Shown in pieces: positions 5,696-17,520 of a DNA stretch of 42,971 bases. Position 1 is the first letter of the stretch. Each line of letters starts with the position of its first letter. Both the position numbers and the translations under genes were made by a program. The notes under the pieces were generated by a model. The model had not been told where the DNA came from, made no database searches, and saw nothing but the letters and a program-made list of their open reading frames with translations. Origin of the DNA: a virus (Duplodnaviria > Heunggongvirae > Uroviricota > Caudoviricetes); IMG/VR virus record IMGVR_UViG_2579778686_000011; one strand, given 5' to 3'.

Positions 5696-6075
5696 TTAGT
5701 TTGCTCTAGGTTTATTATTCAGAAAGCAAAGAATATTCGTTAAATTATTATGTTAGCTTTAATTATTAAAAAACATGTTAATTATCATCAAATGAGCACT
5801 TATCATCATTTTAGTCAAAGAGGTAGTGAGTATTCATTCTGGATCATAACTGCCTTCCTGTTTACGCTAGTGTTTTTTAAAGTCGATGTCCGCTCATCGC
5901 TCAAAGCGGACTAGAAGGTTAGCTTGTGTCGGACTTTGCGTATTAAATGACTAGTGGTTGAGCCCCATTTCCACAGAAAAAATCAGAGAAACTATACCCA
6001 ATAGTTGTATTGAATCACTGACGAGACAGCCTCATATTCATCAGGACTGGTGTACGTCCAATACAGGAGGTTGTG

Positions 6076-6165
6076 GTGCTGGTTCTCAAATGTGCGCTGG
6101 CTATTACGGCTGTAATGGCGATTTATTGTCTTGCTATTGTTCTTATGGATCGCCTTTCTGACTGA
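6076..6165 (+). CDS. Candidate small hydrophobic peptide (~30 aa, VLVLKCALAITAVMAIYCLAIVLMDRLSD; GTG start)
   Basis: AGGAGG at 6065-6070 five nt before GTG 6076; overlaps in another frame the 5958..6161 Cys/Gly-rich ORF. Confidence 0.25.
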   Translation: MLVLKCALAITAVMAIYCLAIVLMDRLSD

Positions 6166-6376
6166 TTTCACATTGGCGAGGTAACGGTAGTTAAGTAGAA
6201 TGGCTGCGGGTGCTTGAGGCTATCTGCCTCGGGCATGAACACCAACGGCAGATAGAGAAAAGCCCCAGTTAACATTACGCGTCCTGCAAGACGCTTAACA
6301 TTAATCTGAGGCCAATTTCATGCTAGACACATGTAGGTTAGCCTCTTACGTGCCGAAAGGCAAGGAGAAGCAGGCT

Positions 6377-6532
6377 ATGAAGCAGCAAAAGGCGATGTTA
6401 ATCGCCCTGATCGTCATCTGTTTAACCGTCATAGTGACGGCACTGGTAACGAGGAAAGACCTCTGCGAGGTACGAATCCGAACCGGGCAGACGGAGGTCG
6501 CTGTCTTCACAGCTTACGAACCTGAGGAGTAA
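6377..6532 (+). CDS. hok: Hok/Gef-family type I toxin
   Basis: MKQQKAMLIALIVICLTVIVTALVTRKDLCEVRIRTGQTEVAVFTAYEPEE is collinear with Hok, including the TRK-LCE-R core; AAGGAGA RBS; in-frame upstream ATG at 6320 gives a mok-like leader; hok-like 5' UTR and 3' fold-back elements present. Confidence 0.85.
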   Translation: MKQQKAMLIALIVICLTVIVTALVTRKDLCEVRIRTGQTEVAVFTAYEPEE

Positions 6533-6601
6533 GAGACCCGGCGAGGGAGAAATCCCTCGCCACCTCTGATGTGGCAGGCATCCTCAACGCACCCGCACTT
6601 A

Positions 6602-6627
6602 ACCCGCTTCGGCGGGTTTTTGTTTTT
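6602..6627 (+). terminator. Rho-independent terminator ending the hok transcript
   Basis: CCCGC-TTCG-GCGGG hairpin followed by TTTTTGTTTTT. Confidence 0.7.
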
Positions 6628-6748
6628 ATTTTCAACGCGTTTGAAGTTCTGGACGGTGCCGGAATAGAATCAAAAATACTTAAGTAGCGCGCAGGGATAA
6701 GAGGGATGGTCCCTTAAAGGGGAGAGCTAATTATCCGGAAGGATTCTG

Positions 6749-7000
6749 ATGATGAACATCGAAGAACTGCGTAAAATTTTTTGTGAAGATGGCCTCTATG
6801 CGGTGTGCGTTGAAAATGGAAATCTTGTTAGTCATTACCGCATTATGTGTTTGCGAAAGAATGGGGCTGCGTTAATTAATTTTGTGGATGGTCGAGTGAC
6901 AGACGGATTTATCTTGCGCGAAGGTGAGTTTGTCACTTCATTACAGGCACTGAAAGAGATCGGAATAAAAGCAGGCTTTTCAGCTTTTGCAGAAGAATAA
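6749..7000 (+). CDS. Hypothetical NinR-region protein (83 aa)
   Basis: Open frame with plausible start; no recognisable motif. Confidence 0.4.
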   Translation: MMNIEELRKIFCEDGLYAVCVENGNLVSHYRIMCLRKNGAALINFVDGRVTDGFILREGEFVTSLQALKEIGIKAGFSAFAEE

Positions 7001-7066
7001 ACTCATCTACAATCTTGCGCGGGGCTGAACTCCCGCTGAGTAACACCGTGCCACCGGAGAAAACCG

Positions 7067-7345
7067 ATGGCACGCAACGTAAAATATTACAATTCTGATA
7101 ATTCGCCCGTTCTTGCCTGCACGCACGAGCGGTATTCTCACGCATTCAAGTCTGAATGGTTCCAACACCCTCCATGCACTGAAGAGCAGGCTGAATGGAT
7201 AATTCAGTGTTACCGCAGGCGCGGATACGAGGTTAAGAAAGCCCTTAGTCTCGACTACCGTCACTGGATAATCTCAGTCAGATTGCCTTACTCCGAACGC
7301 CCACCACGTGCGTCCCGCACTTTCCAGCAACGGATCTGGAGGTAA
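7067..7345 (+). CDS. Hypothetical protein (92 aa)
   Basis: Open frame; 3' end overlaps the next gene. Confidence 0.3.
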   Translation: MARNVKYYNSDNSPVLACTHERYSHAFKSEWFQHPPCTEEQAEWIIQCYRRRGYEVKKALSLDYRHWIISVRLPYSERPPRASRTFQQRIWR

Positions 7346-8396
7346 CGTGCGGGTATTACTTAGACCTGTTCTGGTGCCTGAGCTTGGGCTGGTGGTCCTT
7401 AAGCCGGGCCGTGAATCCATACAGATATTTCATAATCCTCGAGTGCTGGTGGAACCGGAACCAAAAAGCATGCGTAATCTGCCATCCGGAGTCGTTCCTG
7501 CCGTTGGCCAGCCGCTGGCGGAAGACAAAACATTGCTGCCGTTTTTTAGTAACGAACGGGTGATTCGTGCTGCTGGCGGCGTTGGCGCATTGTCTGACTG
7601 GCTATTACGTCATGTTACATCCTGCCAGTGGCCTAATGGAGATTACCATCACACTGAAACAGTCATTCACCGTTATGGTACCGGCGCAATGGTGTTGTGT
7701 TGGCACTGCGACAACCAACTGCGTGACCAGACATCGGAATCACTGGAGCTGCTTGCTCAACAAAATCTGACAGCATGGGTGATTGACGTCATCCGTCACG
7801 CAATAAGCGGTACGCAGGAGCGGGAATTATCTTTGGCTGAATTATCCTGGTGGGCGGTCTGCAATCAGGTGGTGGATGCACTACCTGAGGCTGTATCGCG
7901 TCGTTCGCTGGGATTACCAGCGGAAAAAATCTGCTCGGTGTACCGCGAAAGCGACATCGTACCGGGAGAGCAGACCGCCACCAGCATACTGAAACAGCGC
8001 ACAAAAAATCTTGCGCCGCTGCCTCACGCCCACCAGCAACAGAACCCACCACAGGAAAAGACGGTGGTCAGCATTGCCGTTGATCCTGAGTCTCCGGAAT
8101 CTTTCATGAAACGACCTAAACGTCGCCGCTGGGTTAACGAGAAATACAAACGCTGGGTGAAGACACAGCCGTGTGCGTGTTGTGGTAAGCCAGCCGACGA
8201 TCCCCATCACCTGATTGGTCATGGTCAGGGCGGAATGGGGACAAAATCTCACGATATTTTCACGCTACCGCTGTGTCGGGAGCATCACAACGAGCTTCAT
8301 GCGGATCCTCTGGCGTTCGAAGAAAAGCATGGTTCTCAGGTTGATTTAATTTTTCGTTTTCTTGATCACGCCTTTGCAACTGGCGTGCTTGGGTAA
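7308..8396 (+). CDS. DUF968-like NinR-region protein with Cys/His-rich C-terminus (start GTG 7308 or ATG 7470)
   Basis: C-terminal CACCGKPADDPHHLIGHGQGGMGTKSHDIFTLPLCREHHNELH is a metal-binding-like motif recalled from YdfU-type prophage proteins. Confidence 0.55.
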   Translation: MRPALSSNGSGGNVRVLLRPVLVPELGLVVLKPGRESIQIFHNPRVLVEPEPKSMRNLPSGVVPAVGQPLAEDKTLLPFFSNERVIRAAGGVGALSDWLLRHVTSCQWPNGDYHHTETVIHRYGTGAMVLCWHCDNQLRDQTSESLELLAQQNLTAWVIDVIRHAISGTQERELSLAELSWWAVCNQVVDALPEAVSRRSLGLPAEKICSVYRESDIVPGEQTATSILKQRTKNLAPLPHAHQQQNPPQEKTVVSIAVDPESPESFMKRPKRRRWVNEKYKRWVKTQPCACCGKPADDPHHLIGHGQGGMGTKSHDIFTLPLCREHHNELHADPLAFEEKHGSQVDLIFRFLDHAFATGVLG

Positions 8397-8408
8397 AAGA
8401 GGTGACTG

Positions 8409-8765
8409 ATGCTCATAGATTTGGTTTTACCTTACCCGCCGACGGTGAACACTTACTGGCGACGCCGTGGCAGCACATATTTTATCTCGGAGGAGGGAAA
8501 GCGTTATCGCCGGGCTGTGGCGCTTATTGTTCGCCAGCAGCGGCTGAAATTAAGCCTGTCCGGAAGGCTGGCGATAAAGGTGATTGCAGAGCCACCGGAT
8601 AAGCGTCGTCGCGACCTGGACAATATCCTGAAAGCACCGCTGGATGCGCTGACGCATGCGGGAGTGTTAATGGACGATGAGCAGTTTGATGAAATCAATA
8701 TCGTTCGTGGTCAGCCAGTATCTGGCGGACGTCTGGGGGTGAAGATTTACCCCATAATGCATTAA
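8409..8765 (+). CDS. rusA: Holliday junction resolvase RusA
   Basis: 118 aa with LPYPPTVNTYWRRRG and RRRDLDNILKAPLDALT matching the RusA catalytic motif. Confidence 0.85.
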   Translation: MLIDLVLPYPPTVNTYWRRRGSTYFISEEGKRYRRAVALIVRQQRLKLSLSGRLAIKVIAEPPDKRRRDLDNILKAPLDALTHAGVLMDDEQFDEINIVRGQPVSGGRLGVKIYPIMH

Positions 8766-8779
8766 GAGCAGGTCAAAAA

Positions 8780-9601
8780 ATGAAACTGGAAGATTTACCG
8801 AAATACTACTCCCCAAAATCCCCTGGCCTGACCGATGCATCGGCCTCAACGTCAAAAGATGCGCTGAGTATCACTGATGTGATGGCCGCGCAGGGCATGA
8901 CACAGAATCGGGCTGAGATGGGTTTTTCTGCGTTCCTGGGGAAAATGGGCATCAGTATGAATGACAGGGCGCGGGCAACAGAATTACTGGCAGATTATGC
9001 ACTCAGTCGGTGCGATCGTGTGGCGGCGTTGAGAAAACTTCCGGCAGAAATAAAACCGGTAGTGATGCGCATTATGGCTTCGTACGCTTTTGAGGATTAT
9101 GCCCGCAGCGCAGCGAGTAAAAAGCAGTGCCCTTGTTGCTATGGGGAAAAATTTATTGAAAGCATAGTTTTTACAAACAAGGTCCAGTATCCGGATGGTA
9201 AGCCGCCGGTATGGGCAAAGTGTACGAAAGGTGTGTATCCGTCTTACTGGGAAGAATGGAAAAAAGTCAGGGAGGTGGTAAAAGTTGCCTGTCCGGAGTG
9301 TGGCGGAAAGGGTGAGGTTTCCACCGCCTGTAAGGATTGCCGTGGGCGTGGTGTCGCCATTCATCGTGAAGAGTCGGTAAAACGTGGTATGCCTGTTGTC
9401 AGAGACTGCCAGCGTTGTGGTGGTCGTGGCTATGAAAGACTACCATCAACGGAGGCATTTAATGCTATATGCGAGGTGACAAACCAGATAACACGCGCGT
9501 CATGGGAAAAAACAGTTAAGAAATTCTATGATGCGCTGGTGACCCGGTTTGATATTGAAGAAGCATGGGCTGAGCGGCAGTTAAAAAAGGTAACTAGGTA
9601 A
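8780..9601 (+). CDS. Late-gene antiterminator Q-like protein
   Basis: 273 aa with several CxxC pairs (CPCC, CPECGGKG, CKDCRGRG, CQRCGGRG); sits immediately upstream of a late-promoter-like region and tRNAs. Confidence 0.7.
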   Translation: MKLEDLPKYYSPKSPGLTDASASTSKDALSITDVMAAQGMTQNRAEMGFSAFLGKMGISMNDRARATELLADYALSRCDRVAALRKLPAEIKPVVMRIMASYAFEDYARSAASKKQCPCCYGEKFIESIVFTNKVQYPDGKPPVWAKCTKGVYPSYWEEWKKVREVVKVACPECGGKGEVSTACKDCRGRGVAIHREESVKRGMPVVRDCQRCGGRGYERLPSTEAFNAICEVTNQITRASWEKTVKKFYDALVTRFDIEEAWAERQLKKVTR

Positions 9602-9744: not shown

Positions 9745-9820
9745 GGCCCTTTAGCTCAGTGGTGAGAGCGAGCGACTCATAATCGCCAGGTCGCTGGTTC
9801 AAATCCAGCAAGGGCCACCA
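9745..9820 (+). tRNA. tRNA with CAT anticodon (Met or lysidine-type Ile2), 76 nt with encoded CCA
   Basis: Acceptor stem GGCCCTT/AAGGGCC, GTTCAAATC T-loop, anticodon loop CTCATAA. Confidence 0.85.
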
Positions 9821-9920
9821 TCACAAACCGCCATTAGCTTATCAGGAAGAGCAGACGACACGATAACAGGGTTGTTGGTGCGGGGGCGGGTCCCCGATGG
9901 CGGTCCATTATCGGTATTCA

Positions 9921-9997
9921 GCGTTGTTAGCTCAGCCGGACAGAGCAATTGCCTTCTAAGCAATCGGTCACTGGTTCGAATCCAGTACAGCGCGCCA
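9921..9997 (+). tRNA. tRNA-Arg (anticodon TCT), 77 nt with encoded CCA
   Basis: Acceptor stem GCGTTGT/ACAGCGC, GGTTCGAATCC T-arm, anticodon stem ATTGC/GCAAT with loop CTTCTAA. Confidence 0.85.
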
Positions 9998-10880: not shown

Positions 10881-10908
10881 TTGATTTTGTCAGATGTGAG
10901 TAAACTCC

Positions 10909-11244
10909 TTATGGACTTTGTTGTTTTAGCCCATAAGGACATATTTGCAGAGTGCAACGGTTATTAAAGCATTCATTCAATACGTTATCTGTATTTGTAG
11001 GGCATTCCTGGCTGTTTTTGATTAAATTCCAGAATGTTTTATTGAATGGTACTACGTTGTAAATGGTTACAGGCAGCACTTTGTTATTGAGCATGATGCC
11101 TGTGTGAGTCAGTGTAAATATACTTTCAGGAGGTAAGAAAGCATCCGATTGATACCAGATTATTAATTTTATTTTACTCCATATGACTGAAAAAGATATT
11201 CCGCATGATGGCTGGATAACTGTATCAATCACAATCCACTTCAT
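10909..11244 (-). CDS. Hypothetical protein (111 aa) in AT-rich DNA, opposite strand to the late operon
   Basis: Open frame only; Cys-containing, no motif recognised. Confidence 0.3.
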
Positions 11245-11504
11245 TTAGTTTCCTTGTTTATGCCTTGCTGGTGATGTTCTGAAAAGTATAAATGATATTT
11301 TTGATTGTAAACCATAGAGCAGAATTATTTTTCTGATGTTGTTTATTGTTTATTTAAATGCAGGGTGGTTTATATCTCGTCTTGTAGTTTATCCATGCAT
11401 ATCTGCTTGATGATGAGGTTTTTAATTAAGGTATGGTTTTGTGTTTTTTCTGTATTACATGTCAGGTATTTTAAAGAATCATTTTTCAGATGGTGGAAAG
11501 AACC

Positions 11505-13358
11505 ATGGCATTTAAACACTATGATGTTGTCAGGGCGGCGTCGCCGTCAGATCTTGCGGAAAAGCTGACACATAAACTGAAAGAGGGCTGGCAGCCGTTT
11601 GGTAGTCCGGTGGCCATAACCCCTTATACCCTGATGCAGGCGATTGCAGCAGAAGGTGATGTGGTCGTCAGTGGTGCAACTGAGCCGGAGTGGTACTACG
11701 TCATCGTACTGGCCGGGCAGTCCAATGCCATGGCTTACGGTGAAGGGCTTCCGCTTCCGGATTCATACGATGCGCCCCATCCGCGCATTAAGCAACTGGC
11801 CCGTCGTAACACAGTGACTCCCGGTGGTGAAGTATGCGTATTTAACGACATCATTCCTGCTGACCATTGTCTGCATGATGTTCAGGATATGAGTACGATT
11901 AACCATCCCCGGGCTGACCTGAGCAAAGGGCAGTACGGCTGTGTCGGACAGGGCTTACATATTGCCAAAAAACTGCTTCCGTATATCCCTAATAACGCGG
12001 GGATCCTGCTGGTACCATGCTGTCGTGGTGGTTCGGCATTCACCCAGGGCACGGAGGGGACATTCAGCGAGTCCACGGGGGCCAGTCAGGATTCGGCTCG
12101 CTGGGGAGTGGGTAAGCCGTTATATCAGGATCTGCTTTTCCGCACGAAGGCAGCATTGCAGAAAAACCCGAAAAACGTTTTGCTGGCGATATGCTGGATG
12201 CAGGGGGAATTCGATATGACGAATGCCAGTTACGCCCAGCAGCCAGCAGCATTTCTTGCAATGGTACAGCAGTTCCGTGCTGACCTTGCCGGGCTGGCGG
12301 CGCAGTGTCACGGTGGAAGTCCGGCATCAGTCCCCTGGATTTGTGGCGACACGACATACGCGTGGAAACAAGAACACGGTACGCAATATGAAGTGGTATA
12401 TGGTGCATATAAAGGTAAAGAATCCCAGCAGATTTATTTTGTTCCCTTTATGACCGATGGTAGCGGAGTTAATACACCGACAAACAACCCGTCAGAAGAT
12501 CCTGATATTGTCGGGTCTGGTTATTACGGTTCGGCATCCCGAACGAACAAAAACTGGGTATCATCAAATCGCCCGACGCATTTCAGCTCATGGGCGCGTC
12601 GTGGCATTATTCCCGATCGTATGGCAACCGCTATTCTGAACGCAGCCGGGCGCACCTCAGCCTTCATCAGTGGTAAGGCACCGGAAATCAAACCCTCGCC
12701 CGGCGGCGACACGCCATCGGGTCCGTCTGCAGATACGTCCGTTCGCACAATCTCCCTGCTGCCGACAGCCGGAGAGGCTGCTGCGCAGGGCTGGAGCATT
12801 AAGAATGGCGGAATTCAGTTGTCAGATGGTGTATTTAAGATCACCAAGCAGAGCAATAAAGCCTGGTCCCTGACGCGCCCGGTGGATGACGCAGTCTCCC
12901 TGCTGACACGGGGTGGCAGACTGAGCTGTAAGTTTCGACTGTCAGGCGCACTGACCAACAACCAGTTCGGTCTGGGAATTTATCTGTATACCGATGTAGC
13001 GTTACCTGACGTCGTGGCGATGACCGGGACTGGTAACCCGTTCCTGATGTCGTTCTTCACCCAGACCACAGACGGCAAACTGAATCTGATGCATCACAAG
13101 AAAGCCGGAAACACAAAGTTGGGCGAGTTCGGGAATTACAGTAACGACTGGCAGACGCTGGAGCTGGTGTTCACCGCCGGCAGTGCCACGGTTACTCCGA
13201 AACTGAATGGAGTGGCTGGCCCGGCATTCCAGGTCATAAAAGACAGTCTGACAGTGGGACTAAATGCACTGACGCTGACGGATATTACCAAAAATGCAAC
13301 GTATGGCGTTGAGATAGAAAGTCTGGTGCTGGAGATAAATGCACCGGCATCATCATAA
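11505..13358 (+). CDS. nanS: Prophage sialate O-acetylesterase NanS-p-like protein (SASA/SGNH esterase N-domain plus C-terminal domain)
   Basis: [14 protein letters not shown] matches the GQSN esterase motif; size and position (downstream of the tRNAs, upstream of lysis genes) match NanS-p of Stx-type phages; alternative start ATG 11490. Confidence 0.75.
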
Positions 13359-13507
13359 AAAGTGAGCCAGTCAAATGGAAGGTATCGTTAAACTCACCGG
13401 TAGTGTCAGTGGGTCGTCTGAGACGCCTGCATGAGTTATCAGAGCCATCAGTACTTAACTGGTGGCTTTTTTATTGTTGTCAGCTTCCGGATAACGGGAG
13501 ACGGGGT

Positions 13508-14631: not shown

Positions 14632-15086
14632 GCAGAGTCGCAGCGATTATTTATACTCTGGTTATCTGCACCATCGTCTGCCTGTCGTGGGCGGTCAATC
14701 ATTACCGTGATAACGCCATCGCCTACAAAGAGCAGCGCGATAACAAGGCCAGTGAACTGGAGAAGGCGAACGCCACCATCGCTGACATGCGGAAGCGTCA
14801 ACGTGATGTAGCAGAACTCGACGCAAGATACACAAAGGAGCTTGCTGATGCTAACGCGACTATCGAAAGTCTCCGTGCTGATGTTTCTGCTGGGCGTAAG
14901 CGCCTGCAAGTCGCCGCCACCTGTGCAAAGTCAACGACCGGAGCCAGCGGCATGGGCGATGGAGAAAGCCTAGGACTTACAGCAGATGCTGAACTCAATT
15001 ATTACCGTCTCCGAAGTGGAATCGACAAGATAACCGCGCAGGTCAACTACCTGCAGGAGTACATCAGGACGCAGTGCTTAAAATAA
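14628..15086 (+). CDS. Rz: i-spanin Rz
   Basis: GTG start overlapping the endolysin stop; N-terminal TM helix then a coiled-coil-rich periplasmic domain; Rz1 embedded in the +1 frame. Confidence 0.75.
14848..14973 (+). CDS. Rz1: o-spanin Rz1 (embedded lipoprotein, 41 aa)
   Basis: Hand translation [41 protein letters not shown]: lipobox LGVSAC, Pro-rich mature part, AAAGGAG RBS 7 nt upstream, entirely inside Rz. Confidence 0.75.
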
Positions 15087-15126
15087 TTTTAATTTCACTG
15101 AAATTTAATACGTGACTTTCAGGAAA

Positions 15127-15153
15127 ATGCCTCGCAGATGCGGGGCATTTTTG
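15127..15153 (+). terminator. Rho-independent terminator after the lysis operon
   Basis: ATGCCTCGC-AGA-TGCGGGGCAT hairpin (one mismatch) followed by TTTTTG. Confidence 0.6.
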
Positions 15154-15445
15154 TACAGGTATTTCACCGCGCACCGCAGCGCACTCAACCACGTCGAACC
15201 AAACCCTTTGGAATGAGCCTTTGAGTAGTCAGTTAGTGCTGGTGAGCCTTGACGGGCTGATCTCCTATGCAGCAAAGGTTCATCTCAAAGTAAGGCGAAC
15301 GCTATGACAAACCAAGATTCTATAGACCTATCTGATCTTCGTGGAATGGTCAGTTTTCCAGACAAAAGGTAATCACCATAGTCGTATGGCTATGAATCTT
15401 GTTGCTGCAGATAAGCATTTTGTGATTGAAGTGGTCAAATCTCTC

Positions 15446-15474
15446 AAATGCAGTAAAATGCAGTGCGCTATAAT
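15446..15474 (+). promoter_or_regulatory. Candidate promoter/operator for the cargo gene at 15503 (tandem AAATGCAGT repeats then perfect -10 TATAAT at 15469-15474)
   Basis: Direct repeat AAATGCAGT at 15446-15454 and 15456-15464 abutting TATAAT; AAGGAG RBS at 15493-15498. Confidence 0.4.
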
Positions 15475-15502
15475 TCAATAACGGAGGGAGTAAGGAGAAG
15501 TC

Positions 15503-16123
15503 ATGAAAGATCAAGATGTTAGGTTCGCGGTGCATCATAAGCTTTTGAAAGAATCGCATTTAGATCCAGACTGCCTTGTGGTCGATGAATTTTCCATATC
15601 CCTTGGCGCCAGTAGAGCAGACATTGCTGTAATAAATGGTGTTATACACGGGTACGAGCTCAAAAGTGAATATGACTCTTTGGAGCGTTTGCCTCTTCAA
15701 ATCAAGCATTATTCTTCTGTAATGGACAAGGTTACTCTTGTCGTAGCTGAGAAACATCTTGAGGGAGCATTAAAGTTAATCCCAGGTTGGTGGGGCGTTA
15801 AAACGGTTTCTGTTGGGCCAAAAGGCGCCATTCTTATAAAGCACATGCGTGGAGAAAAGCTTAATCGAAACCATGACACATTGATGCTCGCTCAATTGCT
15901 TTGGAAAGATGAATGTATCGACGTACTTGAACGATGGGGCTATTCCAAAGGAATCAAAAGCAAGCCCCGATTTGAGTTATGGAATATTATTGCGGAAAAT
16001 ATTCCAATAGCGAATCTCAGGCTTGAAGTCAGAACAGCCTTAAAGAAACGCGTAGGCTGGAAAGTTAAGGCTTGGCAGGCTGAGTCTGCGCCAACCAATA
16101 AAGCTGTTTCACGACTAACGTAA
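15503..16123 (+). CDS. PD-(D/E)xK-like nuclease-fold protein (206 aa), cargo gene
   Basis: Spacing of acidic and lysine residues (VVDEF ... RADIAVINGVIHGYELKS) fits a restriction-endonuclease-like D...D...ExK core; strong RBS; AT-rich context. Confidence 0.6.
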   Translation: MKDQDVRFAVHHKLLKESHLDPDCLVVDEFSISLGASRADIAVINGVIHGYELKSEYDSLERLPLQIKHYSSVMDKVTLVVAEKHLEGALKLIPGWWGVKTVSVGPKGAILIKHMRGEKLNRNHDTLMLAQLLWKDECIDVLERWGYSKGIKSKPRFELWNIIAENIPIANLRLEVRTALKKRVGWKVKAWQAESAPTNKAVSRLT

Positions 16124-17132
16124 TATGGTGCGTATGTGCAACTTTACGCCATTCTTTAGAGCCGCCAGATTTGTTAGCGCCTAATGATCTTTGGTAAATG
16201 TAATCATCCCCCCAACTAAATTTGGAACCAAAGACTTGATACTCTGGCGAACTAACAAGGGTAGTACATAAGTTTTTAGTTTGGCCCCATCCATTTCCTT
16301 TAACTGCGGTACCTTTTACAAAGATCCATGAGGTATCGTTCGAATATCTCACTGAGACATACTGAGACATGAAGCGTGGGTCTACGCTCGTAATGGTAGA
16401 GCTAGCGGTGGGATAATCACTAAAACTTGGCGTTCTTCCATTGCTAAAATTCTGTACTACGTGCATCCAAAGATCGTATTCATGGCGCGGAATATGATGA
16501 ACTTGATGTTGCGGTATCCCTGCCTGTGATGCTGGGTATGCGGTTGAAGATAAAATCAAGTTTCTCCACGGAGCTTGGCCTGATAATGTGTTGACCATGC
16601 TTAATGCTTGTTGTTTTAAACTATCAGTTGCGTTTTGAATATCTCCAAAATCAATGATTACATCAATTAAACTAGGATGAATATTTAAGTGGTTAACCAG
16701 ACTTGTGAATTGGTGCCATGTCTGGGGGGTGATAGATATAGCGAGCCCATTGATTAAGTTGCGTTGAACAGCATGTATATAGTTTGTTGAATATGCGGGA
16801 GAAACAACAGGGATAATTTCCTTACCATTTACTCTAGCATCTTGGATACACATATCTAGAGGATGATGGCGGCTCGAACCATGTTTATCTAAATATTTAA
16901 CATCCAGCAAAACAGGACGATTGGCTTTCCAGGATGCCGCAAGGTTAATACCGAAGTCAGATAAGTAAGAACTCAAACTCTTCTTGTAGCATTCGTTTTC
17001 ATAATCCCAGTCTATGTCTGGAATGGTAATGATCGGAGTAAAACCAGAGAGCGTAGTTTGATCTAAAAGCATCAGAGATTCATATTCAGCAGGCTTCCAT
17101 TTCAGCTGTGGATAATATTGATGTTGACTCAT
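16065..17132 (-). CDS. Uncharacterised 355 aa protein convergent with, and overlapping, the PD-(D/E)xK-like gene
   Basis: AAGGAG RBS 5 nt before ATG 17132; N-terminal motif YYPQLKWKPAEYESLMLL; 3' ends of the two genes overlap by 59 bp. Confidence 0.65.
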   Translation of the reverse strand: MSQHQYYPQLKWKPAEYESLMLLDQTTLSGFTPIITIPDIDWDYENECYKKSLSSYLSDFGINLAASWKANRPVLLDVKYLDKHGSSRHHPLDMCIQDARVNGKEIIPVVSPAYSTNYIHAVQRNLINGLAISITPQTWHQFTSLVNHLNIHPSLIDVIIDFGDIQNATDSLKQQALSMVNTLSGQAPWRNLILSSTAYPASQAGIPQHQVHHIPRHEYDLWMHVVQNFSNGRTPSFSDYPTASSTITSVDPRFMSQYVSVRYSNDTSWIFVKGTAVKGNGWGQTKNLCTTLVSSPEYQVFGSKFSWGDDYIYQRSLGANKSGGSKEWRKVAHTHHITLVVKQLYWLAQTQPAKP

Positions 17133-17339
17133 TAAAACTCCTTAAAATCTTTACTTATCCTAAGTATAGTGTTATGGCGTAACGCCAATTGTTTTTATAC
17201 ACTTGAAAACATTAGGAAAAGTTGAGCTATATCTAAATTTACAAAATTGGATGTTATAGAAATCGAGGTTTCAACTAGGCATGGAACTGCAAAATTTTTA
17301 ATGCCTGCACGCGAAAGTCGTTGGCGGGTCCTTTCCGGT

Positions 17340-17520
17340 GATCCAGACCGTTACGGGGCGGCGACCTCGCGGTTTTTCACTATTTATGAAAATTTTTCAG
17401 GGAAAATCGTGTCGGTACTTCTCGAATATAACTTTTTGTTTTTTTTAATATTGCATTCATAAATGTCCGACATGAAAGTGTCCGAAAATGCCTTTTTCTG
17501 GCGTTTTCATGTCGGGCCTT
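17340..17520. other. cos: cos site: cosN cohesive-end sequence GGGCGGCGACCT at 17356-17367 with downstream cosB-like repeats
   Basis: ...GTTACG|GGGCGGCGACCTCGCGG...TATTTATGAAAATTTT closely matches the lambda left end; repeated CATGTCGG/CCGACATG elements between cosN and Nu1. Confidence 0.8.

What the first reader, a model, noticed from the sequence alone, without database searches (positions are those of the whole stretch)
15090..17240. Convergent, 3'-overlapping two-gene cargo module (PD-(D/E)xK-like protein plus 355 aa partner) between Rz and cos: best candidate for an undescribed defence system
The interval between the spanin genes and cos is where lambda carries the bor moron. Here it holds two genes that each have a strong AAGGAG RBS, point at each other, and overlap by 59 bp at their 3' ends (15503..16123 plus strand, 16065..17132 minus strand). 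The 206 aa protein has acidic and lysine spacing consistent with a PD-(D/E)xK nuclease core (RADIAVINGVIHGYELKS). The 355 aa partner opens with YYPQLKWKPAEYESLMLL, which I recall resembles the N-terminus of the uncharacterised 'beta protein'/sce7725-like family, often found next to small nuclease-like partners; that resemblance is from memory and unverified. Tandem AAATGCAGT repeats abut a perfect TATAAT -10 upstream of the plus-strand gene, so the module is probably transcribed in the lysogen. The local sequence looks AT-rich relative to the structural genes. I am not aware of a functional characterisation of this pair, but cannot rule one out without a search.
Basis: partly seen in the sequence, partly recalled or inferred. 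Interest (0 to 1): 0.85.

Follow-up and report, generated by a model that had tools for sequence, protein, structure and literature searches.

The report
Gop-less beta/cII defence-type prophage cassette
The two convergent, overlapping prophage genes are real; they are distant relatives of the beta and cII genes of satellite phage P4's known gop-beta-cII anti-phage system but lack the gop toxin, so this is an untested two-gene variant of a known kind, not an undescribed system.

Summary
In detail: ORFs 15503-16123 (+, 206 aa) and 16065-17132 (-, 355 aa) converge and overlap by 59 bp between Rz and cos, in AT-rich DNA. The 355 aa protein is a full-length Pfam Beta_protein, modelled as a TIM barrel. 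The 206 aa protein is an NCBIfam sce7726 member with a PD-(D/E)xK fold and an invariant E29/D40/E52-x-K54 motif. Both are distant homologues (22% and 27% identity) of beta and cII of P4's gop-beta-cII system, which protects against lambda and P1. Beta proteins are also component C of PD-lambda-2. P4 beta and cII are convergent too. The window has no gop, HigB or Xre-peptidase gene. In 80 genomes from many phyla, 77 sce7726 genes have a convergent beta gene. In 69 of 72 non-redundant pairs the 3' ends overlap, always in the same relative frame, and the anchor codons are exactly 39 nt apart in 57 of 68. The pair is therefore an old, interlocked core, and known systems add a toxin module to it. 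This cassette is in 126 of 5,426 complete E. coli genomes, against 39 for the P4 type. Three independent IS insertions disrupt beta and leave sce7726 intact, which argues against a simple toxin-antitoxin pair. Defence activity is inferred, not shown.

The parts
15503..16123 (+). sce7726 / P4-cII-like gene (206 aa): PD-(D/E)xK nuclease-fold core (about residues 1-120), a helical C-terminal part, and a disordered tail (192-206)
16065..17132 (-). beta-family gene (355 aa), predicted TIM barrel
16065..16123 (.). 59 bp dual-coding 3' overlap of the two convergent genes
   Evidence: In 69 of 72 non-redundant pairs the 3' ends overlap (median 50 nt) and every overlap is 2 mod 3. The anchor codons (sce7726 R183, beta H336) are 39 nt apart in 57 of 68 pairs and 78 nt apart in this clade. 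No conserved RNA structure was found.
15418..15497 (+). Conserved upstream block of the sce7726 gene: TGGTCA (15432-15437), two AAATGCAGT repeats (15446-15464), TAAAAT (15454-15459), TATAAT (15469-15474), RBS AAGGAG (15492-15497)
   Evidence: The block is conserved in Edwardsiella, Klebsiella, Pantoea and Pectobacterium, while the DNA further upstream is unrelated.
17138..17236 (-). Conserved upstream block of the beta gene: TTAGATATAGCTCAA (17236-17222), TATAAA (17199-17194), hairpin TGGCGTTACGCCA (17187-17175), RBS AAGGAG (17143-17138)
   Evidence: conserved across five genera. On the + strand the hairpin is a terminator-like site followed by a T-run.
15124..15151 (.). 13-bp-arm inverted repeat AAAATGCCTCGCA/TGCGGGGCATTTT just after Rz, read as a possible bidirectional intrinsic terminator at the left edge of the cargo region
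   Evidence: the repeat finder I3, 92% complementary. The T-run follows in the sequence. The terminator role is an inference.
17356..17367 (+). cosN-like sequence GGGCGGCGACCT, the right-hand landmark of the slot
   Evidence: The terminase small subunit gene follows at 17519.

Best explanation
This is a self-contained cargo cassette of about 1.8 kb (15418-17236) in a lambdoid E. coli prophage. It carries the two-gene core shared by the P4 gop-beta-cII loci and by the PD-lambda-2-type loci found in the sce7726 survey: a TIM-barrel 'beta' protein and a convergent PD-(D/E)xK protein (sce7726, the P4 cII family). Most likely it protects the lysogen against other phages. In the proposed mechanism, which is inferred, the PD-(D/E)xK protein is a latent effector that binds and cuts DNA, and beta senses infection or licenses the nuclease. 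Beta is probably an enzyme or ligand-binding protein, because it keeps a set of invariant acidic, basic and histidine residues. Each gene has its own conserved promoter region. No terminator-like site was found between or inside the two genes, so the two transcripts must be complementary at their 3' ends, and mutual antisense or transcriptional interference probably sets their ratio. Shown here: homology, folds, conserved motifs, the conserved interlocked architecture, absence of gop, HigB and Xre-peptidase genes, and distribution. Inferred: anti-phage activity, the division of roles, nuclease activity and antisense control.
Against: No phenotype exists for any two-gene form; the only tested relatives contain an extra toxic component (Gop, or PD-lambda-2B). 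Identity to the P4 proteins is low (22% and 27%). Ghisotti 1990, as cited, describes P4 beta as the antidote of Gop, and no Gop is present here. The name cII and some 'regulatory protein' annotations hint at a regulatory rather than a nucleolytic role. The promoter scan gives no more sites than chance, so expression in the lysogen is unproven. The viable IS-disrupted beta alleles could also mean the cassette is dispensable or costly.
Confidence: 0.55

Rival explanations
1. The pair is a selfish addiction (toxin-antitoxin-like) module that stabilises the prophage and has no anti-phage role. The nuclease would be the toxin and beta the antidote.
For: P4 gop/beta was described as toxin/antitoxin-like. 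PD-lambda-2 is TA-derived. The two genes are tightly interlocked and never separated.
Against: Three independent IS insertions inactivate beta with sce7726 intact in viable strains. The genes are convergent, not a co-directional autoregulated operon. PD-lambda-2C is not needed to neutralise that system's toxin.
Confidence: 0.15
2. The pair serves the phage's own life cycle: lysogeny or late-gene regulation (as the name cII suggests), or DNA repair and processing by an MmcB-like nuclease. It would not be immunity.
For: Some sources name homologues 'regulatory protein' or 'DNA repair protein MmcB-like'. The best structural match, 3dnx, is an uncharacterised protein. sce7726 is co-directional with the late operon in three prophage contexts.
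Against: The pair occurs widely outside prophages and in many phyla. It is absent from nearly all deposited phage genomes: the DNA search matched only a 218 bp flank in 34 records, and the protein search matched 6 records. P4 carries it in a non-essential region that is a defence hotspot. Its known relatives have defence phenotypes.
Confidence: 0.15
3. The cassette is a decayed, non-functional remnant of a three-gene gop-beta-cII system that lost its toxin.
For: No gop is present. Several E. coli copies have IS insertions in beta.
Against: Both ORFs are intact, with all family-invariant residues. The cassette is at least 99% identical in 126-127 genomes. The gop-less form is the majority form across phyla, and P4's gop is the exception. 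The upstream regulatory blocks are conserved across genera.
Confidence: 0.05
4. The pair works like a restriction-modification system: beta, a TIM-barrel enzyme, modifies nucleic acid, and sce7726 cuts unmodified DNA.
Against: The transglycosylase hits score no better than dozens of unrelated TIM barrels. Losing the 'modifier' (beta) while keeping the nuclease is tolerated in three lineages, which a classic restriction-modification pair would not allow.
Confidence: 0.05

Closest known systems
gop-beta-cII of satellite phage P4 (Rousset et al. 2022; called Rst_gop_beta_cll in preprint 10.1101/2024.10.26.620412; PADLOC models 'gop', 'beta', 'cll')
   Same: It has a beta-family protein of identical length (355 aa) and an sce7726/cII-family protein. 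The two genes are convergent. The module lies next to cos in a non-essential cargo region of a temperate element in E. coli.
   Different: There is no gop here. Identity is only 22% and 27%. The window's cII homologue is 206 aa rather than 264 aa. The genes overlap by 59 bp here but are 28 bp apart in P4. The host element is a lambdoid prophage, not a P4-like satellite. The defence phenotype is known only for the three-gene P4 locus.
PD-lambda-2 (Vassallo et al. 2022): HigB-like A, Xre-peptidase B, beta-family C
   Same: The window's beta matches PADLOC PD-Lambda-2_C models more strongly than the P4 'beta' model (2.7e-32 against 2.3e-10). In 14 of 80 surveyed loci, PD-Lambda-2 B (and A in 12 of them) sits directly upstream of a beta gene that has the same convergent sce7726 partner.
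   Different: The window has no HigB-like or Xre-peptidase gene. The validated ECOR42 clone extends only 396 bp past the beta 3' end, so it cannot contain a whole convergent sce7726 gene. I could not determine whether ECOR42 has one. The HigB/ImmA-IrrE pair also exists without beta.
PD-(D/E)xK nucleases: closest solved structure 3dnx (SPO1766, function unknown), then Can2 nuclease domain, NucS, SdaI, YaeQ
   Same: [quoted passage not shown]
NCBIfam sce7726 family, and the 'Sce7725/Sce7726' adjacent pair seen in genome annotations
   Same: The 206 aa protein is a clear member (2.3e-54 against a cut-off of 70 bits). Papers list Sce7726 and Sce7725 proteins as neighbours.
   Different: These are names only, with no function attached. 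No NCBIfam model in the library matched the beta partner, including the one from Sorangium, so whether sce7725 equals the beta family is unverified.

Membership tests
gop-beta-cII defence system (P4 type) | Beta-family protein (Pfam PF14350) | tested here: met
   PF14350 1.8e-55 over the full length. PADLOC 'beta' 2.3e-10. Collinear alignment with P4 beta.
gop-beta-cII defence system (P4 type) | cII / sce7726-family protein encoded convergently to beta | tested here: met
   PADLOC 'cll' 4.3e-31. NF033832 2.3e-54. 27% identity to P4 cII. Convergent in both P4 and the window.
gop-beta-cII defence system (P4 type) | Gop: a small membrane toxin encoded directly upstream of beta in the same operon | tested here: not met
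   tblastn of P4 Gop against the whole window gives a best E of 0.054, elsewhere in the window. The hit upstream of beta (E 0.18) contains stop codons. No co-directional ORF of 50 aa or more lies within 200 bp upstream of beta.
gop-beta-cII defence system (P4 type) | Anti-phage phenotype (lambda, P1) | not testable with these tools
   Requires cloning and phage challenge.
PD-lambda-2 | HigB-like component A and Xre-HTH/ImmA-IrrE peptidase component B upstream of beta | tested here: not met
   Nothing is encoded upstream of beta before cos. For contrast, L038 gives PD-Lambda-2_B 2.5e-150 and PD-Lambda-2_A 4.8e-41.
PD-lambda-2 | Beta-family component C | tested here: met
   PDLC03984 2.7e-32 and PDLC03983 2.2e-25.
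PD-(D/E)xK nuclease superfamily (206 aa protein) | [quoted passage not shown] | tested here: met
PD-(D/E)xK nuclease superfamily (206 aa protein) | Catalytic D...(D/E)-x-K signature on strands 2 and 3 | tested here: met
   D40 and E52-L-K54, plus E29, are invariant in 54 sequences, conserved in P4 cII, and at least 95% conserved in 72 unique sequences from many phyla.
PD-(D/E)xK nuclease superfamily (206 aa protein) | Metal-dependent nuclease activity | not testable with these tools
   Biochemistry is needed.
Type II toxin-antitoxin system | Loss of the antitoxin is lethal while the toxin gene is intact | tested here: not met
   IS1, IS5 and IS66-family insertions disrupt beta with sce7726 intact in sequenced isolates. 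Caveat: expression levels are unknown.
Type II toxin-antitoxin system | Co-directional bicistronic operon | tested here: not met
   The genes are convergent with separate upstream regions.
NCBIfam sce7725/sce7726 pair | sce7726-family member | tested here: met
   NF033832, 184.1 bits against a cut-off of 70.
NCBIfam sce7725/sce7726 pair | Partner is an sce7725-family member | tested here: inconclusive
   No NCBIfam model hit the window's beta, P4 beta, or the Sorangium and Pyrinomonadaceae partners. RefSeq names the partner 'beta family protein'.

The most novel reading that the evidence does not exclude
The beta/sce7726 pair is an ancient, autonomous two-gene immune core. Its convergent, frame-locked, dual-coding 3' junction has kept the two genes inseparable across bacterial phyla and forces mutual antisense control. 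Beta would be a true enzyme or ligand sensor that licenses the PD-(D/E)xK nuclease on infection. Gop-beta-cII and PD-lambda-2 would then be derived forms that bolt an extra toxin module onto this core. If so, current annotation undercounts the system by requiring the accessory genes.
Probability: 0.25. Interest if true: 0.7.

Novelty: new variant of a known kind. Interest (0 to 1): 0.5.

Why it matters
The mechanisms of gop-beta-cII and PD-lambda-2 are unknown, and both are currently described by their toxin-like parts. This analysis indicates that the conserved part is the beta plus sce7726 pair. The sce7726 family has 3,581 representatives at 50% identity (E up to 1e-10). The pair is found in Proteobacteria, Firmicutes, Myxococcota, Acidobacteriota, candidate-phyla bacteria and others, whereas Rst_gop_beta_cll is reported only from Proteobacteria. 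The lambdoid cassette is a minimal natural version without any accessory toxin, and it is three times more common in complete E. coli genomes than the P4 form. That makes it a convenient object for asking what beta and cII actually do. The frame-locked convergent overlap maintained across phyla is also an unusual case of long-term dual coding in bacteria.

Tried and rejected
1. A gop remnant upstream of beta. The tblastn hit at 17293-17081 has E 0.18, contains stop codons and runs into beta in another frame, so it is chance.

2. A conserved RNA hairpin or bidirectional terminator in the overlap. RNAalifold on 57 junctions aligned in register gives no structure, and the mean z of single folds is -0.38.

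3. Sequence relatives with solved structures. Profile searches of both families against PDB sequences found nothing meaningful.

5. The sce7725 link. No NCBIfam model hit.

6. Whether the validated ECOR42 PD-lambda-2 locus has a convergent sce7726 gene. I could not retrieve that contig. A protein search with a PD-Lambda-2_B homologue returned no named E. coli entry among the 120 rows shown, and the plasmid hits I inspected were HigB/ImmA pairs without beta.

7. More divergent copies of the pair in E. coli. A distant blastn search found only the copies that are at least 99% identical.

8. The Ghisotti 1990 paper on P4 gop, beta and cII is not held in the library, so what I say about it comes from citing papers.

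9. Literature on 'PF14350', 'Beta_protein', 'sce7726' and 'gop_beta_cll'. No functional study of the two-gene form turned up.
Full report
**Observation.** The window holds ORF 15503..16123 (+, 206 aa) and ORF 16065..17132 (-, 355 aa). They converge and share 59 bp at their 3' ends. Each start codon has AAGGAG 5 nt upstream. Two copies of AAATGCAGT (15446-15454 and 15456-15464) lie four bases before TATAAT at 15469-15474. The pair sits between the Rz-type lysis gene, which ends at 15086, and a lambda-type cosN sequence, GGGCGGCGACCT, at 17356. The terminase small subunit gene follows. The cassette has GC 0.406 against 0.508 for the whole window.

**What the proteins are.**
- The 355 aa protein is a full-length member of Pfam Beta_protein (PF14350, 1.8e-55). 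It also hits the PADLOC models PD-Lambda-2_C (2.7e-32) and 'beta' (2.3e-10).
- The 206 aa protein is a member of NCBIfam sce7726 (2.3e-54) and hits the PADLOC model 'cll' (4.3e-31).
- PHROGs has both families, with unknown function.
- The PADLOC 'gop', 'beta' and 'cll' models match the three genes of the non-essential region of satellite phage P4. In the P4 genome, gop (247-648, +) and beta (651-1718, +, also 355 aa) are followed by cII on the opposite strand (1746-2540). So beta and cII are convergent there too, and RefSeq gives them the same two family names.
- Direct comparison gives 22% identity over the whole length for beta (E 3e-7) and 27% for cII (E 1e-18).

**What is known about the relatives.**
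- Rousset et al. 2022 showed that gop-beta-cII protects E. coli against lambda and P1. Citing Ghisotti 1990, they note that Gop is toxic without beta (PMC9122126).
- Vassallo et al. 2022 showed that PD-lambda-2 consists of a HigB-like protein, a toxic Xre-peptidase fusion and a beta-family protein. The beta component is required for defence but not for neutralising the toxin (PMC9519451).
- A preprint reports that a phage accessory gene, orf184, triggers cell death through gop-beta-cII (10.1101/2023.04.06.535777).
- I found no mechanism for beta or cII in the literature I could search.

**What is missing here.** Neither a gop homologue nor a PD-lambda-2 A or B gene lies next to the pair. A tblastn search with P4 Gop gives only chance-level hits, and no co-directional ORF lies upstream of beta before cos. 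The module is therefore not a member of either named system as defined. It has two of the three parts of one system and one of the three parts of the other.

**Structures.**
[quoted passage not shown] Its tail (residues 192-206), which is the part encoded in the overlap, is disordered.
- E29, D40, E52 and K54 are invariant in the first alignment, including P4 cII. They are at least 95% conserved in 72 unique sequences from many phyla.
- Beta keeps E16, D161, R216, D239, D309 and H336 in at least 95% of 68 unique sequences. I read this as an active or ligand-binding site.

**Conserved architecture.**
- A scan of one genome per species found 389 loci that encode an sce7726 relative, and I analysed the best 80.
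- In 77 of these 80 a beta-family gene lies immediately downstream on the opposite strand. Two exceptions are cut by contig ends, and one (L009) truly lacks beta.
- Among 72 non-redundant pairs, 69 overlap at their 3' ends (11-158 nt, median 50), and every overlap length is 2 mod 3.
- Measured between conserved anchor codons (sce7726 R183 and beta H336), the spacing is exactly 39 nt in 57 of 68 pairs. It is 78 nt in the window's clade, and 65 of 68 pairs share the same phase.
- The conserved C-terminal ends of both proteins are thus encoded on the same DNA in a frozen register. The junction shows no conserved RNA structure.
P4, with a 28 bp gap and a longer cII, is an exception.

**Accessory genes.**
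- In 14 loci a protein of about 400 aa lies directly upstream of beta. The one I scanned, from L038, matches PD-Lambda-2_B at 2.5e-150. In 12 of the 14 a HigB-like protein precedes it, and the L038 copy matches PD-Lambda-2_A at 4.8e-41.
- A few loci, like P4, have a small hydrophobic protein in that position.
- Twenty or more loci, including most of the Enterobacterales relatives surveyed, have nothing there.
- HigB/ImmA-IrrE pairs also occur without beta.
- The simplest reading is a conserved two-gene core onto which toxin modules are sometimes docked.
- The validated PD-lambda-2 clone reaches only 396 bp past its beta gene. If a convergent sce7726 gene exists there, the clone did not contain all of it.

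**Cassette and distribution.**
- Both genes have private upstream blocks conserved in Edwardsiella, Klebsiella, Pantoea and Pectobacterium, while the surrounding DNA is unrelated. For sce7726 the block contains the AAATGCAGT repeats and the -10 element.
- This conservation is the real support for function. The consensus promoter scan found no more sites than chance.
- The cassette is at least 99% identical in 126-127 of 5,426 complete E. coli genomes, against 39 for the P4-type locus.
- In Photorhabdus and Xenorhabdus the sce7726 gene also follows Rz directly; the Photorhabdus locus has the convergent beta gene, while the Xenorhabdus one (L009) lacks it.
- The sce7726 family has 3,581 representatives at 50% identity with E up to 1e-10.

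**Natural knock-outs.** IS1 (strains 1532MA and 1532WA), IS5 (strain 100416) and an IS66-family element (RM10410) each interrupt beta and leave sce7726 intact. Three of three insertions falling in the longer gene is not a significant bias. It does show that lysogens lacking beta are viable, which argues against beta being an essential antidote to a constitutively active nuclease. It agrees with the PD-lambda-2 result that beta acts in defence, not in neutralisation.

**Most likely mechanism.**
- Roles (inferred): a prophage-borne defence cassette in which beta senses infection or licenses the effector, and the PD-(D/E)xK protein cuts DNA.
- Transcription (inferred): no terminator-like site lies between or inside the two genes. 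Besides two weak sites around the 5' end of sce7726, the sites found on the relevant strands lie beyond the partner gene: 17175-17187 on the + strand, and 15055-15037 on the - strand, plus the 15124-15151 hairpin. The two mRNAs must therefore be complementary at their 3' ends.
- Orientation: sce7726 runs in the direction of the late operon, so late transcription would favour it over beta.
- None of this is shown experimentally.

**Verdict.** This is an untested, minimal, gop-less variant of a known defence-associated gene pair, not an undescribed system. The interest lies in the pair being the conserved core of two known systems, and in its frame-locked convergent overlap.

Noticed in passing
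window 15090-15307: The first 218 bp after Rz are 86.5% identical to the rha/ORF201 region of Salmonella phage P22 and its relatives. This looks like a remnant of a different cargo gene, left at the same slot by recombination.
   Followed up: partly
L038, L046, L054, L058, L061, L062, L064, L071, L073, L075-L079 (beta side of each locus): In these loci from diverse phyla, PD-lambda-2-type operons (HigB-like, Xre-peptidase, beta) are followed by a convergent, overlapping sce7726 gene. This possible fourth component is not part of the published three-gene definition.
   Followed up: partly
L083 (E. coli 1532MA), L086 (strain 100416), L087 (RM10410): Three different insertion sequences (IS1, IS5, IS66-family) interrupt the beta gene. 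None interrupts sce7726.
   Followed up: yes
window 16049-16127: The window's clade carries exactly 39 nt (13 codons) more than the common 39-nt spacing between the sce7726 R183 and beta H336 codons. The sequence GGCTGGAAAGTTAAGGCTTGGCAGGCTG looks partly repetitive, so it may be a junction duplication.
   Followed up: no
window 16351-16370: A perfect tandem duplication, ACTGAGACAT x2, lies inside the beta coding region.
   Followed up: no
L009 (Xenorhabdus koppenhoeferi) 6001-9409: This locus has an intact sce7726 gene just after an Rz homologue but no detectable beta gene in the 2.8 kb downstream. It is the only solo case among the informative loci.
   Followed up: partly
window 9745-9997 and 10900-13360: Upstream of the lysis genes lie two tRNA genes (ARAGORN calls the first Met/CAT, RefSeq annotates it Ile; the second is Arg/TCT). 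They are followed by an AT-rich patch (GC 0.34-0.37 at 11000-11600) that by offset from L001 corresponds to an iraM-like gene, and by a SASA-family esterase gene. This is a typical late region of an E. coli lambdoid prophage.
   Followed up: no
phage records KU052037 (Rac-SA53), MN234218 and MT024859 (Gordonia phages), PQ356897 (Mycolicibacterium phage): Only six deposited phage genomes encode a detectable beta homologue (23-30% identity), annotated as hypothetical. I did not check whether an sce7726 partner is present.
   Followed up: no
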